DNA from: a virus
DNA length: 64,000 nt
IMG/VR virus record: IMGVR_UViG_3300025326_000018
Location: 14,645 to 78,644 of that record
Direction: 5' to 3' (one strand)
Position numbers and translations under genes: made by a program. The notes under the pieces were generated by a model. That model ran no database searches. It had not been told where the DNA came from and saw nothing but the letters and a program-made list of their open reading frames with translations. Positions within the stretch are counted from its first letter, which is position 1. Every line of letters starts with the position of its first letter. Shown piece after piece: positions 33,803 through 46,580 of the stretch.

Positions 33803-33861
33803 AGCTCCTTCAGCCTAGTCGAAAGATTGGGATTTTTATTTGTTTGAAGTAAAGTATTCTC

Positions 33862-33895
33862 TTGCGTTAGTATGGATTATAGCTTACACATAATG
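33862..33895 (+). promoter_or_regulatory. Early promoter
   Basis: TTGCGT-N17-TACACATAATG. Confidence 0.8.
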
Positions 33896-33929
33896 AGTAG
33901 GCAGTAGCCTATATACACAGGAGAAGAAA

Positions 33930-34236: not shown

Positions 34237-34266
34237 AGCCCTGCCGAAAGGTGGGGCTTTTTCTTT
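34237..34266 (+). terminator. Rho-independent terminator
   Basis: AGCCCTGCC-GAAA-GGTGGGGCT followed by TTTT. Confidence 0.85.
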
Positions 34267-34285
34267 GTTTGATTTAAAGTATTTC

Positions 34286-34319
34286 TTGTGTAAGTAGTAA
34301 TTATACTTTACATATAATG
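34286..34319 (+). promoter_or_regulatory. Early promoter
   Basis: TTGTGT-N17-TACATATAATG. Confidence 0.75.
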
Positions 34320-34350
34320 CATAGGCAGACAAACACAACGGAGAAAGATT

Positions 34351-34530: not shown

Positions 34531-34560
34531 GGCCCTACCGAAAGGTGGGGCTTTTTATTT
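34531..34560 (+). terminator. Rho-independent terminator
   Basis: GGCCCTACC-GAAA-GGTGGGGCT followed by TTTTATTT. Confidence 0.85.
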
Positions 34561-34580
34561 GTATGACGTAAAGTATTTGC

Positions 34581-34614
34581 TTGCGTTGATAGTAACTTTA
34601 GCTTACATATAATG
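34581..34614 (+). promoter_or_regulatory. Early promoter
   Basis: TTGCGT-N17-TACATATAATG. Confidence 0.8.
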
Positions 34615-34653
34615 AGTAGGCAGCAAGCTTACAACAACTCACAGGAGAAGAAA

Positions 34654-34997: not shown

Positions 34998-35030
34998 GGG
35001 TCGGGTGGAAACACCCGGCCTTTTATTTTG
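34998..35030 (+). terminator. Rho-independent terminator
   Basis: GGTCGGGTG-GAAA-CACCCGGCC followed by TTTTATTTT. Confidence 0.85.
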
Positions 35031-35441
35031 TATTCGACAAGGTTTTTTATTGCAAAAGGTTGTAGTTGGTCTTAAATACAACGGATAGACAGCAAAGATA
35101 TTCAAGCAGAGCAAGTATATTCCGGGGTAGTAAAATCTTTTTAGTTTTTTTGCTTTATTTTATATAAAAGGTATTGCATTACTACAAAGAAGTTACTATA
35201 TTGTATTTATCGGAGCTGCAGAGCAAGTGTCGAAAGACCCCTCAAGGCTCCGAAAGGAAAGGCTCCAGGCCCGACCAGCGACTAGAGAAGACGGTAGAGA
35301 GGACTACCGACCCGAGAAGGGGAACCAGGCACCGAACGGAGCGGAAGCTGGGAACATCAAAAGAAGCTCACGATAAAAAGAAAAAGGACTTCCTGGACCT
35401 TAAACCTACCGGCCGCGAAAGCACACCGGAGAAGACGAAAA

Positions 35442-35509
35442 GTCGAAACCTAGAGGAAAAAAATTCCTCGAAGGTCGTCGGGAGATGAGCTACCCGGCTT
35501 GAATAAGAC
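35442..35509 (+). ncRNA. Variant type II hammerhead-like ribozyme
   Basis: GUC-GAAA-CC..stem III..GG-UC / stem I GUCGGG..CCCGGC / UUGAAUAA-GAC (core variant: U3-A8 plus 1-nt insertion). Confidence 0.5.
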
Positions 35510-35531
35510 AGCTCATTCACAGGAGTAGAAG

Positions 35532-35834
35532 ATGCTTAAAGTTATCGCCCTCGCTGCTTCAGTTGTACTGCTTACAGTCCCAACGGTTTTAGCTGGGGAA
35601 GGTACCGAGAGGTGCGGTGAGAAGGTGACCTGGAAAGGCGTCTGGTGTATCGTTAGCCTAAACGACGCGAAGGCACATTGTACCCTAGCTGCAAAGTATG
35701 AGAATAGGGTCAAGCATGCAGAGGTCGACGGTGACCTCGACGCTGCTCAGATGTATCGCAATCGCGCAGCTTACCAAGCTGCCGAGTGCAAGCGCTTCCT
35801 AGAACTGCACGCCGTAAAGTATCCGACGAAGTAA
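35532..35834 (+). CDS. Exported hypothetical protein
   Basis: Signal peptide MLKVIALAASVVLLTVPTVLA; four Cys. Confidence 0.65.
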   Translation: MLKVIALAASVVLLTVPTVLAGEGTERCGEKVTWKGVWCIVSLNDAKAHCTLAAKYENRVKHAEVDGDLDAAQMYRNRAAYQAAECKRFLELHAVKYPTK

Positions 35835-35907
35835 GCCGAAATCTAGGGGGTGGCGAAAGCTGCCCCCGATGATCGCTGAGGTGTGAGAGACCCCGGCCCG
35901 ATGAGGC
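35835..35907 (+). ncRNA. Type II hammerhead-like ribozyme
   Basis: GCC-GAAA-UC..GGGGGUGGC-GAAA-GCUGCCCCC..GA-UC / stem I GCUGAGGU..ACCCCGGC / CCGAUGA-GGC; predicted cut after C35874. Confidence 0.72.
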
Positions 35908-35931
35908 ATCTCAACTACACAGGATTAGAAA

Positions 35932-36345
35932 ATGTTCCTCGGAGAAGCGAAAAACGTCGGTAATCTTCGTCTCTTGCTAAACGCGAAGATGAATCTTTAT
36001 ACGTCGATGCTGGAGAATCTCAAGACTCAAGCAGAGATGGACGCTGCCTATGCCGGCGAGCACGGTGATGTAACTTTTCATCATCAGGCGCATTGGTTGG
36101 GCTGGTATGCCATCGAGCTTCCAGTAGCGGCGTTCACGGCAGATCAGGCGGCGCGGGTCCTTATCGAGATTAAGGATGCTGCCGACGGCGATGCAATTCC
36201 GGAGCGGATTAAGTCTGAGGCGCTTCGGAACGTTCTTTCGAGCATGAAGTTGGGTAGCCGGTCCACATCGGCTGCAAGCAACTTGGCCGAGGACGCTGTT
36301 CGCGCCTTCTGGGTGGAACTTGGTTCCATCGTGCTAACGAAGTAG
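35932..36345 (+). CDS. Early hypothetical protein
   Basis: ACAGGA RBS; lies between two hammerhead-like elements. Confidence 0.6.
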   Translation: MFLGEAKNVGNLRLLLNAKMNLYTSMLENLKTQAEMDAAYAGEHGDVTFHHQAHWLGWYAIELPVAAFTADQAARVLIEIKDAADGDAIPERIKSEALRNVLSSMKLGSRSTSAASNLAEDAVRAFWVELGSIVLTK

Positions 36346-36346
36346 A

Positions 36347-36417
36347 GCCGAAACCTAGGGGAAGCGAAAGCTTCCCCGATGGTCGTTGTGAGGTGGGAGC
36401 TCACGGCCCGATGAGGC
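36347..36417 (+). ncRNA. Type II hammerhead-like ribozyme
   Basis: GCC-GAAA-CC..GGGGAAGC-GAAA-GCUUCCCC..GG-UC / stem I GUUGUGAG..CUCACGGC / CCGAUGA-GGC; predicted cut after C36384. Confidence 0.75.
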
Positions 36418-36441
36418 ATCCCGATCAAGTAGGAGTTAGTC

Positions 36442-37542
36442 ATGAACCAGTCCGCTAAGAAGTCCGTTTCTATCGCCGCAGCTTGGATCTTTGGTACGGT
36501 GATTTTCGCCATCGTGCTCGTAGCCGGTGGCCTAAGCTTGTATATTAACGTCGTCGTCGGTCTGACGATGGGTATCGCTGGTGCGGTGATGTTCGCTATC
36601 GGCGACGTCACGAAGATGGTTCTGCCGGTTGCCATGCAGGCGGTGGGCAAGACGGTGCTGCTGCGCAGCATCTACTGGATGGTCACACTCGTATCTTTCG
36701 TCTGCGCCTTCCTAGCCACTGCCGATATGTTCGGTACGCAGTTTGTAACGACGCACACGGCGCAGAAGATCGAAACGGTTGGTGCTGAGAACCTAAAGGA
36801 CCTCCGCGCTTCTCTCGATGTGGCGCGCGCGATGATGCTCGCTGAGTCGAAGAACAAAGGTTGTAAGGACAAGTGCACCGCTCTTGTTGCTCGCGTAGAC
36901 ATCCTGGAGAAAGAGATTAAGGTCCAGGTTGTGAAGCAGCAAGCGAACACGACCGCAGAGATGTCGGGGAAGGCGATTCTCGGCCAGACGATGTTCGAGG
37001 TTGCTGGAACCAAAATCGACACGTACACGACGGCGATGATTGTCGTCTTCCAGATGGTGATGATGGAGATGATCAGCCTAATGTCCGGCTTTGCTGCTGG
37101 GATGATTGGCCACGCTATGAAGCTTTCCGCAGATAAGAAAGCGGAGATCATTGCCAAGAAGGTTGCTGCTGAGAAGAAGATTGCTGCTGCCGCGAAGAAG
37201 GTAGAGACGGCAAAGAAGAAAGCGGCTGCGGCCCGGAAGTTGGCAGCGGCAGCGAAGAAGAAGGCGGCTACCGAAGGTCAGGATGCTGAGGCGGCGAAGA
37301 AGCTTGCAGCGGCAGAGAAGATTATCGAAGCCAAGAAGATTGCCCTCGAGAAGAAGAACCTTGCTGCCGCGAAACGTCGCGCTGTCGCAGCCGCGAAGAA
37401 GGCAGCGGCCGAGGCCAAGAAGATTGCCGCCGCAGCGAAGAAGGCAGCCGCTCGCAAGGTTGCAGCCGAGAAGAAGGCTACGCGCAAGACCAGCCCGAAG
37501 GTTGTCCAGCTCGTGCGCAGTCAGGAGAAGATCAGCGCCTAG
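36442..37542 (+). CDS. Multi-pass membrane protein with Ala/Lys-rich (TolA/histone-H1-like) tail
   Basis: Several N-terminal TM helices; C-terminal ~130 aa of AAAKK repeats; AGGAG RBS. Confidence 0.7.
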   Translation: MNQSAKKSVSIAAAWIFGTVIFAIVLVAGGLSLYINVVVGLTMGIAGAVMFAIGDVTKMVLPVAMQAVGKTVLLRSIYWMVTLVSFVCAFLATADMFGTQFVTTHTAQKIETVGAENLKDLRASLDVARAMMLAESKNKGCKDKCTALVARVDILEKEIKVQVVKQQANTTAEMSGKAILGQTMFEVAGTKIDTYTTAMIVVFQMVMMEMISLMSGFAAGMIGHAMKLSADKKAEIIAKKVAAEKKIAAAAKKVETAKKKAAAARKLAAAAKKKAATEGQDAEAAKKLAAAEKIIEAKKIALEKKNLAAAKRRAVAAAKKAAAEAKKIAAAAKKAAARKVAAEKKATRKTSPKVVQLVRSQEKISA

Positions 37543-37546
37543 TAAG

Positions 37547-37578
37547 GTGGCCCAGGAGACTGGGCCACTATTTTCTTT
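37547..37578 (+). terminator. Rho-independent terminator
   Basis: GTGGCCCAG-GAGA-CTGGGCCAC followed by TATTTTCTTT. Confidence 0.75.
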
Positions 37579-37595
37579 CATATACAAAAGGGCGC

Positions 37596-37629
37596 TTGCG
37601 TAAGTAGGCGCTTTACCTTACACATAATG
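37596..37629 (+). promoter_or_regulatory. Early promoter
   Basis: TTGCGT-N17-TACACATAATG. Confidence 0.8.
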
Positions 37630-37654
37630 CATAGGCAGACGCACACAACAGGAG

Positions 37655-38077: not shown

Positions 38078-38086
38078 GAGATTGAA

Positions 38087-38314
38087 ATGCGGTATCCAGG
38101 ACTACCAGACTCAGTGGCTACAGAGCTGGATCGCAGCGGCCTTGATTGGCACGTGCGGCAGCGAACCAACCATGACGCTATTGTTGTCGGGGGTGAGATT
38201 GTCACCTATTTCGGTAGGAGTCAACCGGGCCCAAGAAATGAACGTAATATGGTTGCTGCTGTGCGTAGGTTTGTGCAAGGACGCGCTGTTAACAAGTACC
38301 GGAAAGTTTCTTAG
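38087..38314 (+). CDS. Small hypothetical protein
   Basis: AGGAG RBS; WHVRQRTNHDAIVVGG..RNMVAAVRR. Confidence 0.5.
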   Translation: MRYPGLPDSVATELDRSGLDWHVRQRTNHDAIVVGGEIVTYFGRSQPGPRNERNMVAAVRRFVQGRAVNKYRKVS

Positions 38315-38333
38315 GGCTCAGACAATTTCTGCA

Positions 38334-38367
38334 TTGCGTTAGTAATCGCTTTACCTTACACATAATG
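38334..38367 (+). promoter_or_regulatory. Early promoter
   Basis: TTGCGT-N17-TACACATAATG. Confidence 0.8.
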
Positions 38368-38401
38368 CATAGGTAGACGAAACACATCACAGGAGACGAA
38401 G

Positions 38402-45761: not shown

Positions 45762-46580
45762 ATGGTATCGAAAGTCGAAGCCGAACTCGTCAAAGCGCTG
45801 AAACTCAAGAAGCAGAAATCCAGCGAAGGTCGGGACGATTATCTCGCTCGGGCTCTCAAGGCCATCGACGATCTCGACGATGACGGCTGGGCTGAGCTTT
45901 CCGAGGCGGCGCAGAAGTGGGCAAACGACGCGGCCAAGAAGGCCAAGGCGAAGAAGGATATCCCCGACTTCCCGAAGGACAAGGAAGACGAGGAAGAAGA
46001 GGGCGAGGAAGAAGAAGAAGAGAAGCCGGCGAAGAAGAAGTCCAAGAAGGACGACGACGAGGAAGAGGAGACCGAGGAAGAAGAGGACGGCGAGGAAGAA
46101 GAAGAAGAAGAAGAGAAGCCGGCGAAGAAGAAGGGCAAGGAGAAAGCCAAGGAAGATAAGAAGCCGGCGAAGGAAGAGAAGAAGCCGGCGAAGAAGAAGG
46201 CGAAGGACGACGACGAAGAGGAAGAGGAAGAGAAGGAAGAGGAGGAGACCGAGGACGACGACGAAGACGAGGCTCCGAAGAAGAAGGGCAAGAAGGACGA
46301 GAAGTCTGCCAAGTCCGATAAGAAGGCTGCCAAGCCCGAAGCCAAGGCCGGCAAGCGCTCGGGTGCGCAGGGTGTCACGGCGAGCATCAAGAAGATCATG
46401 CTCGGCGACCCGCAGATATCGGTCGAGAACCTCACCGACGCTCTCAAGGAGAAGGGTTTCGATACGATCAGTAATATGACTGTCACGACCGTTCGCGCCG
46501 ACTTCCGCCACACGCTGCGGATCATGAAGGAAGAAGGCGGCCTCAGCAAGGCGCTCTCTTCGAAGATGGACGACGAGTAG
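45762..46580 (+). CDS. Protein with long acidic/lysine charge-block disordered region
   Basis: Folded N- and C-termini joined by EEEE/KPAKKK blocks. Confidence 0.8.
   Translation: MVSKVEAELVKALKLKKQKSSEGRDDYLARALKAIDDLDDDGWAELSEAAQKWANDAAKKAKAKKDIPDFPKDKEDEEEEGEEEEEEKPAKKKSKKDDDEEEETEEEEDGEEEEEEEEKPAKKKGKEKAKEDKKPAKEEKKPAKKKAKDDDEEEEEEKEEEETEDDDEDEAPKKKGKKDEKSAKSDKKAAKPEAKAGKRSGAQGVTASIKKIMLGDPQISVENLTDALKEKGFDTISNMTVTTVRADFRHTLRIMKEEGGLSKALSSKMDDE

What the first reader, a model, noticed from the sequence alone, without database searches (positions are those of the whole stretch)
35442..36417. Three tandem intergenic type II hammerhead-like ribozymes punctuating an early operon
Seen: elements at 35442-35509, 35835-35907 and 36347-36417, each shortly upstream of an RBS; the second and third begin right after a stop codon. 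All read stem II-GAAA-stem III hairpin-NUC-stem I hairpin-core-stem II'. Stem III base pairs covary (UC/GA vs CC/GG) and stem I sequences differ while staying paired. The cores deviate from CUGANGA: CCGAUGA (U4C) in two copies and UUGAAUAA (C3U/G8A plus an insertion) in one. Established: hammerheads cleave after NUH and occur in phage and bacterial intergenic regions. Inference: self-cleavage splits the transcript into monocistronic RNAs with 5'-OH hairpin ends, and the variant cores may tune or gate the rate.
Basis: partly seen in the sequence, partly recalled or inferred. Interest (0 to 1): 0.75.

Follow-up and report, generated by a model that had tools for sequence, protein, structure and literature searches.

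The report
Variant hammerhead ribozymes punctuating phage operon
Three small self-cutting "hammerhead" RNA motifs sit in front of the three genes of one operon of an uncultivated tailed phage. This arrangement has been known since 2011. All three carry non-standard catalytic cores that a related phage also keeps, and whether they still cut is untested.

Summary
The elements at 35442-35509, 35835-35907 and 36347-36417 each fold as a type II hammerhead: stem II, GAAA, stem III hairpin, UC cleavage site, stem I hairpin, core, stem II. It forms in all nine long-loop family members, with compensatory changes at 4 of 5 pairs.

A covariance model built only from canonical-core (CUGAUGA) cousins in other viral contigs finds exactly these three sites (49.3, 41.9 and 24.6 bits; next best 9.6). 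Rfam RF02276 stays below threshold: 20 bits for copy 3, nothing for copies 1 and 2.

A related 101-kb viral contig has the same leader-HH-gene-HH-gene-HH-gene layout with the same odd cores at the same positions (U3/A8, then U4C, U4C). All 39 core sites are unchanged, while the flanking genes are only 53-60% identical.

Most likely these are functional ribozymes that cut the transcript into a leader RNA and three monocistronic mRNAs. Cleavage by the U4C cores is not shown.

Tandem phage hammerheads, U3-A8, the A6a insertion and U4C are all published, and this scan has already met U4C phage hammerheads on other DNA. This is a new member of a known kind.

The parts
35174..35202 (+). Sigma-70-like promoter of the operon (-35 TTGCAT at 35174-35179, 17-nt spacer, -10 TATATT at 35197-35202). 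It follows the terminator of the preceding unit (34998-35021 plus T run).
   Evidence: Read from the sequence; terminator. Both hexamers are kept in relative G001. The consensus scan did not list the promoter, and the transcription start near 35209 is inferred.
35205..35441 (+). Conserved structured, U-poor leader RNA (A 36%, G 29%, C 25%, U 10%) with no credible ORF. Cleavage by HH1 would release it.
   Evidence: 67% identical to G001, with a near-identical block at about 35318-35368 and indels of 14 and 10 nt. Fold z-score -3.3. RNAalifold gives 49 pairs, 9 with compensatory double changes. No Rfam family. Composition.
35442..35516 (+). Hammerhead 1 (type II). Stem II GUC/GAC, GAAA 35445-35448, stem III 35449-35474, U35475-C35476 with predicted cut after C35476, stem I 35477-35498, core UUGAAUAA 35499-35506 (U3/A8 plus one extra A after A6). 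Pseudoknot: loop 35485-35491 with tail 35510-35516 (7 bp).
   Evidence: R2 24.6 bits. The ortholog in G001 has UUGAUAA without the insertion. No Rfam hit.
35532..35834 (+). Gene 1, 100 aa, with an N-terminal signal-peptide-like segment. No Pfam or PHROG family.
   Evidence: 43% aa identity to the G001 ortholog.
35835..35913 (+). Hammerhead 2 (type II). Starts right after the TAA stop. Stem II GCC/GGC, predicted cut after C35874, core CCGAUGA (U4C) 35898-35904. Pseudoknot 35884-35888 with 35909-35913 (5 bp).
   Evidence: R2 49.3 bits. 84% identical to the G001 ortholog, against 53-60% for the flanking genes. No Rfam hit.
35932..36345 (+). Gene 2, 137 aa, unknown function.
   Evidence: Homologs P0002 (58%) and P0003 (44%). 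G001 ortholog 57%.
36347..36423 (+). Hammerhead 3 (type II). Starts one base after the TAG stop. Stem II GCC/GGC, predicted cut after C36384, 8-bp stem I, core CCGAUGA (U4C) 36408-36414. Pseudoknot 36394-36398 with 36419-36423 (5 bp).
   Evidence: The centroid fold is the three-way junction. R2 41.9 bits. Rfam RF02276 gives 20.0 bits, full length but below the gathering score of 37.
36442..37542 (+). Gene 3, 366 aa. N-terminal membrane-like segments followed by Ala/Lys-rich repeats. No family match.
   Evidence: 59% identity to the G001 ortholog over 228 aa.
37546..37580 (+). Intrinsic-terminator-like hairpin (10 bp, 7 GC) plus T-rich tail that ends the operon. The next promoter repeat starts at 37595.

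Best explanation
These are three genuine type II hammerhead ribozymes of a phage-specific subfamily. The subfamily has a long stem III with a conserved internal loop, and part of it also has a loop I / 3'-tail pseudoknot.

Proposed mechanism:
1. One transcript starts at a sigma-70-like promoter near 35200 and ends at the terminator near 37570.
2. As each element is transcribed it folds and cuts itself after C35476, C35874 and C36384 by internal transesterification.
3. This gives a structured leader RNA of about 268 nt and three single-gene mRNAs of about 398, 510 and 1190 nt.
4. Each upstream product ends in the stable stem III hairpin with a 2',3'-cyclic phosphate.
5. Each downstream mRNA begins with a 5'-OH and the stem I / pseudoknot fold, about 20 nt before its start codon. 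Such ends should shield against 3' exonucleases and against 5'-monophosphate-dependent RNase attack, and should uncouple the fates of the cistrons.

What is shown: the fold, family membership by homology, and selection on the core. What is inferred: cleavage itself, the nature of the ends, and the stabilising effect.

The non-standard cores (U4C twice; U3-A8 plus an extra A once) are the maintained state in this phage lineage. They probably cut more slowly than consensus hammerheads.
For: - Descriptor and coordinates.
- Model R2, built from canonical CUGAUGA cousins only, finds exactly these three sites (49.3, 41.9, 24.6 bits; next 9.6).
- Stem covariation on 23 members: 0 of 500 shuffles reach the observed score, and slide controls collapse.
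- Pseudoknot: 5 of 5 pairs form in all 9 long-loop members, with G-C/A-U/C-G exchanges at 4 of 5 positions. Non-cognate loop/tail combinations average 3.4 of 5, and slid registers give 0-3. This is the tertiary contact shown to be needed for fast type II cleavage (PMC3088659, section 7).
- Relative G001 (100,945 bp) has four copies. Three are at orthologous positions with the same core types. The hammerheads are 74-84% identical, against 53-60% for the genes between them.
- All 13 unpaired core positions of each of the 3 ortholog pairs (39 sites) are unchanged. The only difference is the one inserted A. At about 60% neutral identity this would happen by chance about 2e-9 of the time (my arithmetic).
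- Neither phage has a canonical-core copy, so the variants are not isolated decayed members.
- U4C recurs in unrelated contexts: L128, L139 and L164.
- A truly decayed copy looks different: L146:2866-2945 has a broken core.
- Published: tandem hammerheads flanking phage genes cleave in vitro and in E. coli; U3-A8 is a natural active covariation; an A6a insertion gives low but detectable activity; a viroid U4C variant still supports infectivity (PMC3088659, sections 6, 8, 11).
Against: - No cleavage data exist for these sequences.
- U4 is part of the CUGA uridine turn. Comprehensive single and double mutagenesis of a type III hammerhead found low activity for all mutants there except the C3/G8 swap (PMC9901934). 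Perreault et al. describe U4C as considerably decreasing activity in vitro.
- Copy 1 combines two deviations (U3/A8 and an insertion), and its ortholog lacks the insertion, so copy 1 may be impaired.
- None of the three reaches the Rfam gathering score. Only copy 3 gets any RF02276 hit, at 20 bits against 37.
- The minimum-free-energy fold of copy 2 in its local context is not the hammerhead junction.
- The cousins used to build R2 were found with a pattern derived from the window's own elements, so that test is not fully independent.
Confidence: 0.7

Rival explanations
1. Hammerhead-derived but catalytically dead or nearly dead elements. The fold is kept because the hairpins act as passive punctuation: stabilising 3'/5' structures, translational insulators between cistrons, or recognition sites for a host or phage RNase. 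In this reading the RNA does not cut itself.
For: The core deviations are at positions where laboratory mutants lose most activity (PMC9901934; PMC3088659, section 11). Copy 1 has two deviations. Rfam scores are sub-threshold or absent. Perreault et al. also list hammerhead-like RNAs from phages with core changes that showed no activity (their Figure S7, PMC3088659).
Against: A purely structural role does not explain why every unpaired catalytic nucleotide (G5, A6, A9, G12, A13, A14, A15.1-U16.1, C17) is unchanged in three ortholog pairs while the genes diverged to 53-60% identity. It also does not explain why the pseudoknot that positions stems I and II for catalysis is kept by compensatory changes. 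The C3-G8 to U3-A8 change is itself a compensatory change inside the catalytic core.
Confidence: 0.2
2. Active ribozymes whose paired cuts serve RNA circularisation or splicing rather than simple processing. The segment between two cuts carries a 5'-OH and a 2',3'-cyclic phosphate. Because copies 2 and 3 share the same stem II strands (GCC/GGC), the ends could reassemble into a chimeric hammerhead and be ligated into a circular mRNA.
For: Copies 2 and 3, and all four copies in G001, share identical stem II strands. Perreault et al. raised this possibility for clustered hammerheads (PMC3088659, section 6).
Against: Perreault et al. looked for spliced or circular products and found none. Identical stem II strands are expected simply from common descent. 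Copy 1 has GUC/GAC, which would give a mismatch with copy 2's strand. No evidence here bears on ligation.
Confidence: 0.04
3. A chance resemblance, or a DNA-level repeat (for example a recombination or protein-binding site) with no RNA role.
For: Rfam's curated thresholds are not met.
Against: E-values of 3e-11 to 1.6e-4 with a model built from other contigs. Compensatory changes occur in three stems and a pseudoknot. The elements are strand-specific, sitting between a stop codon and a ribosome-binding site in many unrelated contigs.
Confidence: 0.01

Closest known systems
Type II hammerhead ribozymes with a loop I / 3'-tail pseudoknot (Rfam RF02276; Perreault et al. 2011, PMC3088659)
   Same: Same circular permutation (stem II open, stems I and III capped). 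Same GAAA, A15.1-U16.1 and C17. A short 3-bp stem II. A pseudoknot of 5-7 bp between loop I and the nucleotides just after stem II. Located in phage DNA. RF02276 aligns full length to copy 3 and to two copies of the relative.
   Different: Scores are below the gathering threshold: 20-23 bits against 37, and none for copies 1 and 2. Stem III is long, with a conserved 2x3 internal loop. The cores are CCGAUGA or UUGA(A)UAA instead of CUGANGA.
Tandem hammerhead arrays flanking single genes in prophages (Clostridium scindens, Azorhizobium caulinodans, Agrobacterium tumefaciens ardA locus; PMC3088659, section 6 and Figure 3)
   Same: Several hammerheads on one strand bracket individual small genes of one transcript. 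The proposed role is processing of a polycistronic RNA into single-gene RNAs. Those arrays cleaved in vitro, and one cleaved in E. coli.
   Different: Different genes and hosts. Here every copy has a non-consensus core. The first copy ends a conserved non-coding leader instead of following a gene.
Canonical-core cousins of the same scaffold in uncultivated viral contigs (L120/L181 with 6 copies, L121, L127, L146, L165, L183)
   Same: Same scaffold: stop codon abutting stem II, GAAA, CCU-internal loop-hairpin, GGUC, GCCGGG/CCCGGC-type stem I, stem II, then a ribosome-binding site and ATG. They retrieve the window's copies as a model.
   Different: They have CUGAUGA or CUGACGA cores, a 4-bp stem II, a 5-nt loop I and no pseudoknot.
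Natural hammerhead core variants: U3-A8 covariation, A6a insertion, A6C (phage Bcep176), and U4C in a viroid (PMC3088659, sections 8 and 11; PMC7151607)
   Same: Copy 1 has U3/A8 plus an extra A after A6. Copies 2 and 3 have U4C. Each change has a published natural precedent, with reduced but detectable or biologically sufficient activity.
   Different: Here U4C is fixed in several copies and kept at orthologous sites in two diverged phages. U3/A8 and the insertion occur together. None of these sequences has been assayed.
HHphage variant hammerhead of haloviruses HF1/HF2, 13 nt upstream of the first ORF of an early polycistronic transcript (PMC3088659, Discussion)
   Same: A variant-core hammerhead just upstream of the first cistron of a phage transcript, like copy 1, which ends 22 nt before its ATG. 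In HF1/HF2 the mapped 5' end lies within 3 nt of the cleavage site.
   Different: A different core variation (insertions 2a/2b), an archaeal halophile host, and a single copy.
Synthetic ribozyme insulators such as RiboJ (from my own knowledge, not checked here)
   Same: A hammerhead placed before a ribosome-binding site removes the upstream RNA context and leaves a 5'-OH hairpin on the mRNA.
   Different: An engineered part derived from a satellite-RNA hammerhead, not a natural phage element.

Membership tests
Hammerhead ribozyme (type II) | Three-way junction: stems I and III closed by loops, stem II open, in the order II'-GAAA-III-UH-I-core-II | tested here: met
   The descriptor scan finds all three at the stated coordinates. 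Covariation supports all stems. The centroid fold of copy 3 is this junction.
Hammerhead ribozyme (type II) | Core strand C3 U4 G5 A6 N7 G8 A9 | tested here: not met
   Copies 2 and 3 have C at position 4. Copy 1 has U3 and A8 (a known compensatory pair) plus one extra A between A6 and N7. G5, A6 and A9 are present in all.
Hammerhead ribozyme (type II) | G12 A13 A14, the A15.1-U16.1 pair, and a non-G nucleotide (H17) at the cleavage site | tested here: met
   GAAA and UC are present in all three, and invariant or nearly so in the 23-member alignment.
Hammerhead ribozyme (type II) | Tertiary contact aligning stems I and II (for type II: pseudoknot between loop I and the tail 3' of stem II) | tested here: met
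   7, 5 and 5 bp in copies 1-3. 5 of 5 pairs form in all nine long-loop members, with compensatory changes at 4 of 5 pairs. Controls collapse.
Hammerhead ribozyme (type II) | Score at or above the curated Rfam gathering threshold for RF02276 (37 bits) | tested here: not met
   No hit at gathering or at E<=10 on 2 kb. In narrow searches copy 3 scores 20.0 bits and copies 1 and 2 get no hit. Even the canonical-core cousins of this scaffold are missed by Rfam at E<=0.1, so the model is insensitive to this subfamily.
Hammerhead ribozyme (type II) | Homology to hammerheads with a consensus core | tested here: met
   Model R2, built from 14 CUGAYGA members of other contigs, gives 49.3, 41.9 and 24.6 bits, with the next hit at 9.6.
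Hammerhead ribozyme (type II) | Site-specific self-cleavage yielding 2',3'-cyclic phosphate and 5'-OH ends | not testable with these tools
   Needs a transcription/cleavage assay or end-specific RNA-seq.
Tandem hammerhead arrays that process phage polycistronic RNAs | Two or more same-strand hammerheads bracketing single genes within one transcription unit | tested here: met
   One promoter-like site (35174-35202), three hammerhead-gene units and one terminator (37546-37569), with no promoter repeat inside. The relative has the same layout.

The most novel reading that the evidence does not exclude
The non-consensus cores are selected because they make cleavage slow or conditional (dependent on ions, a factor, or folding). 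The operon RNA would then be processed on a timer. The first cut would release the conserved, structured, U-poor leader of about 268 nt as a stand-alone regulatory RNA with a protected 2',3'-cyclic-phosphate hairpin end. That would be a ribozyme-released phage small RNA.
Probability: 0.12. Interest if true: 0.6.

Novelty: new member of a known kind. Interest (0 to 1): 0.33.

Why it matters
The biological role of genome-encoded hammerheads in phages is still open (PMC6765202). This locus is a clean natural test case:

- It is one promoter, one terminator and three genes, each preceded by a hammerhead.
- Neighbouring small genes reach the same single-gene layout with repeated promoter-terminator cassettes instead.
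- Every copy in this phage and in a diverged relative has a core that laboratory mutagenesis would call defective, yet the cores are conserved.

A simple cleavage assay with C4-to-U and U-to-C swaps would show whether pseudoknotted phage scaffolds tolerate U4C. That result would tell database curators whether to admit CCGANGA cores, which current Rfam models miss. It would not change the general picture of hammerhead biology.

Tried and rejected
- **Rfam.** The whole window at gathering gave nothing. A 2-kb search at E<=10 gave nothing relevant, because filters dropped the hits. Narrow searches gave 20 bits for copy 3 only. The weak snoRNA and guanidine-III hits there are chance.
- **Close phage records.** blastn of the operon against 50,697 phage records found no match. 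The neighbouring SNF2 helicase is only about 31% identical to Vibrio and Edwardsiella phage proteins.
- **A bare 14-mer scan of viral contigs.** It gave mostly chance hits, and only L043 was real.
- **The gapped pattern in metagenomes and genomes.** Most of the 101 loci were chance matches. The covariance model kept 28 real sites.
- **More orthologous operons.**
  - The search for related loci with gene 3 and with an alignment of gene 2 homologs found nothing.
  - The search for homologous proteins gave two further homologs of gene 2, P0002 and P0003.
- **Leader RNA.**
  - An exact-pattern scan for its conserved block returned nothing, not even the known relative, so it is uninformative.
  - The idea that the leader is a CsrA/RsmA-type sponge is not supported. 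Its 10 GGA motifs match the dinucleotide-shuffle expectation (9.1, p=0.40).
  - No long antisense match to the rest of the genome was found.
- **Protein families.** Pfam and PHROGs gave nothing for the three operon genes.
- **Coding reading of the leader.** Rejected for the ORFs at 35174-35488 and 35227-35376. The start codon is lost in the relative, and the indels are 14 and 10 nt.

Full report
**What is there.** The window is bases 14645-78644 of a single 78,644-bp viral record, about 79% complete.
- It is a tailed phage with a tape measure protein, J-like tail fibre, ribonucleotide reductase, DnaB, SNF2 helicase, DNA polymerase and SbcC. All genes are on the + strand.
- No close record exists among 50,697 deposited phage genomes.
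- A type II hammerhead descriptor run over the whole genome returns them with the stated boundaries, cores and cut sites. It returns only two other hits, both weak 2-bp-stem hits inside coding DNA.

**More than chance, and what family.** Rfam gives nothing at its curated thresholds or in a 2-kb permissive search.
- In narrow searches, copy 3 aligns full length to RF02276 (Hammerhead_II) at 20.0 bits against a gathering score of 37. Copies 1 and 2 get no hit.
- This says little, because Rfam also misses canonical-core members of the same scaffold.
- Pattern scans found those members in uncultivated viral and metagenome contigs: L120 with six tandem copies, plus L121, L127, L146, L165 and L183. 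All have CUGAUGA or CUGACGA cores and the same layout: stop codon, stem II, GAAA, stem III with an internal loop, GUC, stem I, core, stem II, ribosome-binding site, ATG.
- Model R2, built from 14 of these and containing nothing from the window or its close relative, finds exactly the three sites at 49.3, 41.9 and 24.6 bits. The next hit is 9.6 bits.
- One caveat: the cousins were fished with a pattern derived from the window's elements.
- On the 23-member alignment, 91.7% of cells pair (shuffles 77.9%), 12 pairs show double changes, no shuffle of 500 reaches the covariation score, and slid registers fall to 25-48% paired.

In each copy, the loop of stem I is complementary to the nucleotides directly after stem II.
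- The pairings are 35485-35491 with 35510-35516, 35884-35888 with 35909-35913, and 36394-36398 with 36419-36423.
- In all nine long-loop family members, the same five alignment columns pair 5 of 5, with exchanges at four of the five pairs. Non-cognate loop/tail combinations average 3.4 of 5, and slid registers give 0-3.
- This is the pseudoknot that Perreault et al. found in most type II hammerheads and showed to be needed for fast cleavage (PMC3088659, sections 6-7).

**The relative.** A 100,945-bp viral contig (G001; loci L043 and L231) carries the same unit: terminator, promoter, leader, HH, gene, HH, gene, HH, gene.
- The proteins are 43%, 57% and 59% identical to those of the window.
- At the DNA level, the genes are 53-60% identical and the hammerheads 74-84%.
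- The core types match position by position: U3/A8 first, then U4C, then U4C.
- All 39 unpaired core sites are unchanged. The only difference is that the window's copy 1 has one extra A (UUGAAUAA against UUGAUAA).
- G001 has a fourth copy (U3/A8) in front of the ortholog of the window's ORF 38087-38314. The window has only 9 nt there.
- Neither phage has a consensus-core copy.
- U4C also occurs in unrelated contexts: L128 (followed about 310 nt downstream by a near-threshold canonical type III hammerhead), L139, and L164.
- L164's element shares loop I and tail with copy 2 but sits between unrelated genes.
- A truly decayed copy (L146:2866-2945) shows what loss of function looks like: the core is broken.

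**Transcription unit.**
- The terminator of the preceding unit is at 34998-35021.
- A sigma-70-like promoter follows: TTGCAT at 35174-35179, a 17-nt spacer, and TATATT at 35197-35202. It is conserved in G001.
- No promoter repeat lies inside the unit, and a terminator sits at 37546-37569.
- The neighbouring small genes each have their own copy of a repeated promoter-terminator cassette, at 33820, 34244, 34539, 37595 and 38292.
- So this phage reaches a single-gene RNA layout in two ways: cassettes, or hammerheads.

**Mechanism.**
- Shown: the fold, homology to hammerheads, and purifying selection on the catalytic nucleotides and the tertiary contact.
- Established for the family: self-cleavage after position 17, giving 2',3'-cyclic phosphate and 5'-OH ends. 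Tandem prophage arrays cleave in vitro, and one cleaves in E. coli (PMC3088659).
- Inferred here: cuts after C35476, C35874 and C36384, giving fragments of about 268, 398, 510 and 1190 nt.
- Also inferred: 3' ends protected by the stem III hairpin and cyclic phosphate, 5'-OH ends with the stem I / pseudoknot fold about 20 nt before each start codon, and independent stability and translation of the three mRNAs.

**The cores.** U3-A8 is a published natural compensatory pair. An insertion after A6 gave low activity. A viroid U4C variant cleaves poorly in vitro yet remains infectious (PMC3088659, sections 8 and 11). Comprehensive mutagenesis of a type III hammerhead found low activity for every CUGA-turn mutant except the C3/G8 swap (PMC9901934). 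The conserved C4 is therefore the one real tension. The possibilities are:
- the pseudoknotted scaffold tolerates it;
- slow cleavage is sufficient or preferred;
- the elements no longer cut (rival reading, 0.2).
Conservation of all catalytic positions argues against the last. I put 0.7 on functional self-cleaving processing elements.

**Comparison and novelty.** The kind of element, the type II permutation, the pseudoknot, the tandem gene-flanking arrangement and each core variation are all described in Perreault et al. 2011. The review PMC6765202 still lists the function as unresolved. Earlier notes of this scan report U4C hammerheads in several other phage genomes. My own loci confirm the recurrence (L128, L139, L164). 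This is a new member of a known kind. It is modestly notable because all copies are variant and are conserved as such.

**Limits.** There is no assay. Model E-values are rough.

Noticed in passing
window 35205-35441: The operon's leader, about 230 nt, is a conserved structured RNA and not coding. It is 67% identical to the relative, with a near-identical block at about 35318-35368. Its fold z-score is -3.3, and 9 of 49 predicted pairs show compensatory double changes. It is U-poor (10% against a genome mean of 24%) and matches no Rfam family. HH1 cleavage would release it with a hairpin and cyclic-phosphate 3' end. Its function is unknown, and a CsrA-sponge idea was not supported.
   Followed up: partly
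L231:4296-4382 (- strand; G001) compared with window 38078-38086: The related phage has a fourth hammerhead (U3/A8 core) directly upstream of the ortholog of the window's ORF 38087-38314. The window has only a 9-nt gap there. Copies are therefore gained or lost between close relatives.
   Followed up: partly
L164:1218-1298: A U4C hammerhead has the same loop I and pseudoknot tail as the window's copy 2, with compensatory changes in stems I and III. It sits between genes unrelated to the window's operon. The stop-hammerhead-RBS cassette seems to move, or to persist, independently of the genes.
   Followed up: partly
alignment A1 columns 13-14 and 40-42 (window examples 35451-35452 / 35470-35472; 36356-36357 / 36378-36380): Stem III of the whole subfamily carries a conserved asymmetric internal loop: 5' U-N opposite 3' N-A-Y, with a nearly invariant U and A. 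This is not part of the hammerhead consensus, and its role is unexplained.
   Followed up: no
L128:471-525 (- strand): A canonical-core type III hammerhead (RF00008, 43.8 bits, just under the gathering score of 48.5) lies about 310 nt downstream of a U4C type II copy on the same strand. Mixed-type arrays therefore include C4 members.
   Followed up: no
L146:2866-2945 (- strand): A decayed family member with a broken core strand (the positions matching G8 and A9 are changed, and stem II is lost) sits next to an intact copy. It is a useful contrast for what loss of function looks like.
   Followed up: no
window 33820-33915, 34244-34339, 34539-34634, 37595-37649, 38292-38387: A repeated cassette of terminator hairpin, T run, promoter-like TTGCGT...CATAAT and a conserved CACAGGAG ribosome-binding region precedes several small ORFs around the hammerhead operon.
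   Followed up: no
window 45762-46580: A 272-aa ORF contains a stretch of about 350 nt that is almost free of T (under 1%) and 87% purine. It encodes a Glu/Lys/Asp-rich low-complexity protein and is the most extreme composition in the genome.
   Followed up: no
protein P0001 (identical to window 35932-36342): The identical protein is recorded on 4 contigs, the longest 102,297 bp. A longer, probably complete, version of this phage genome therefore exists in public assemblies.
   Followed up: no
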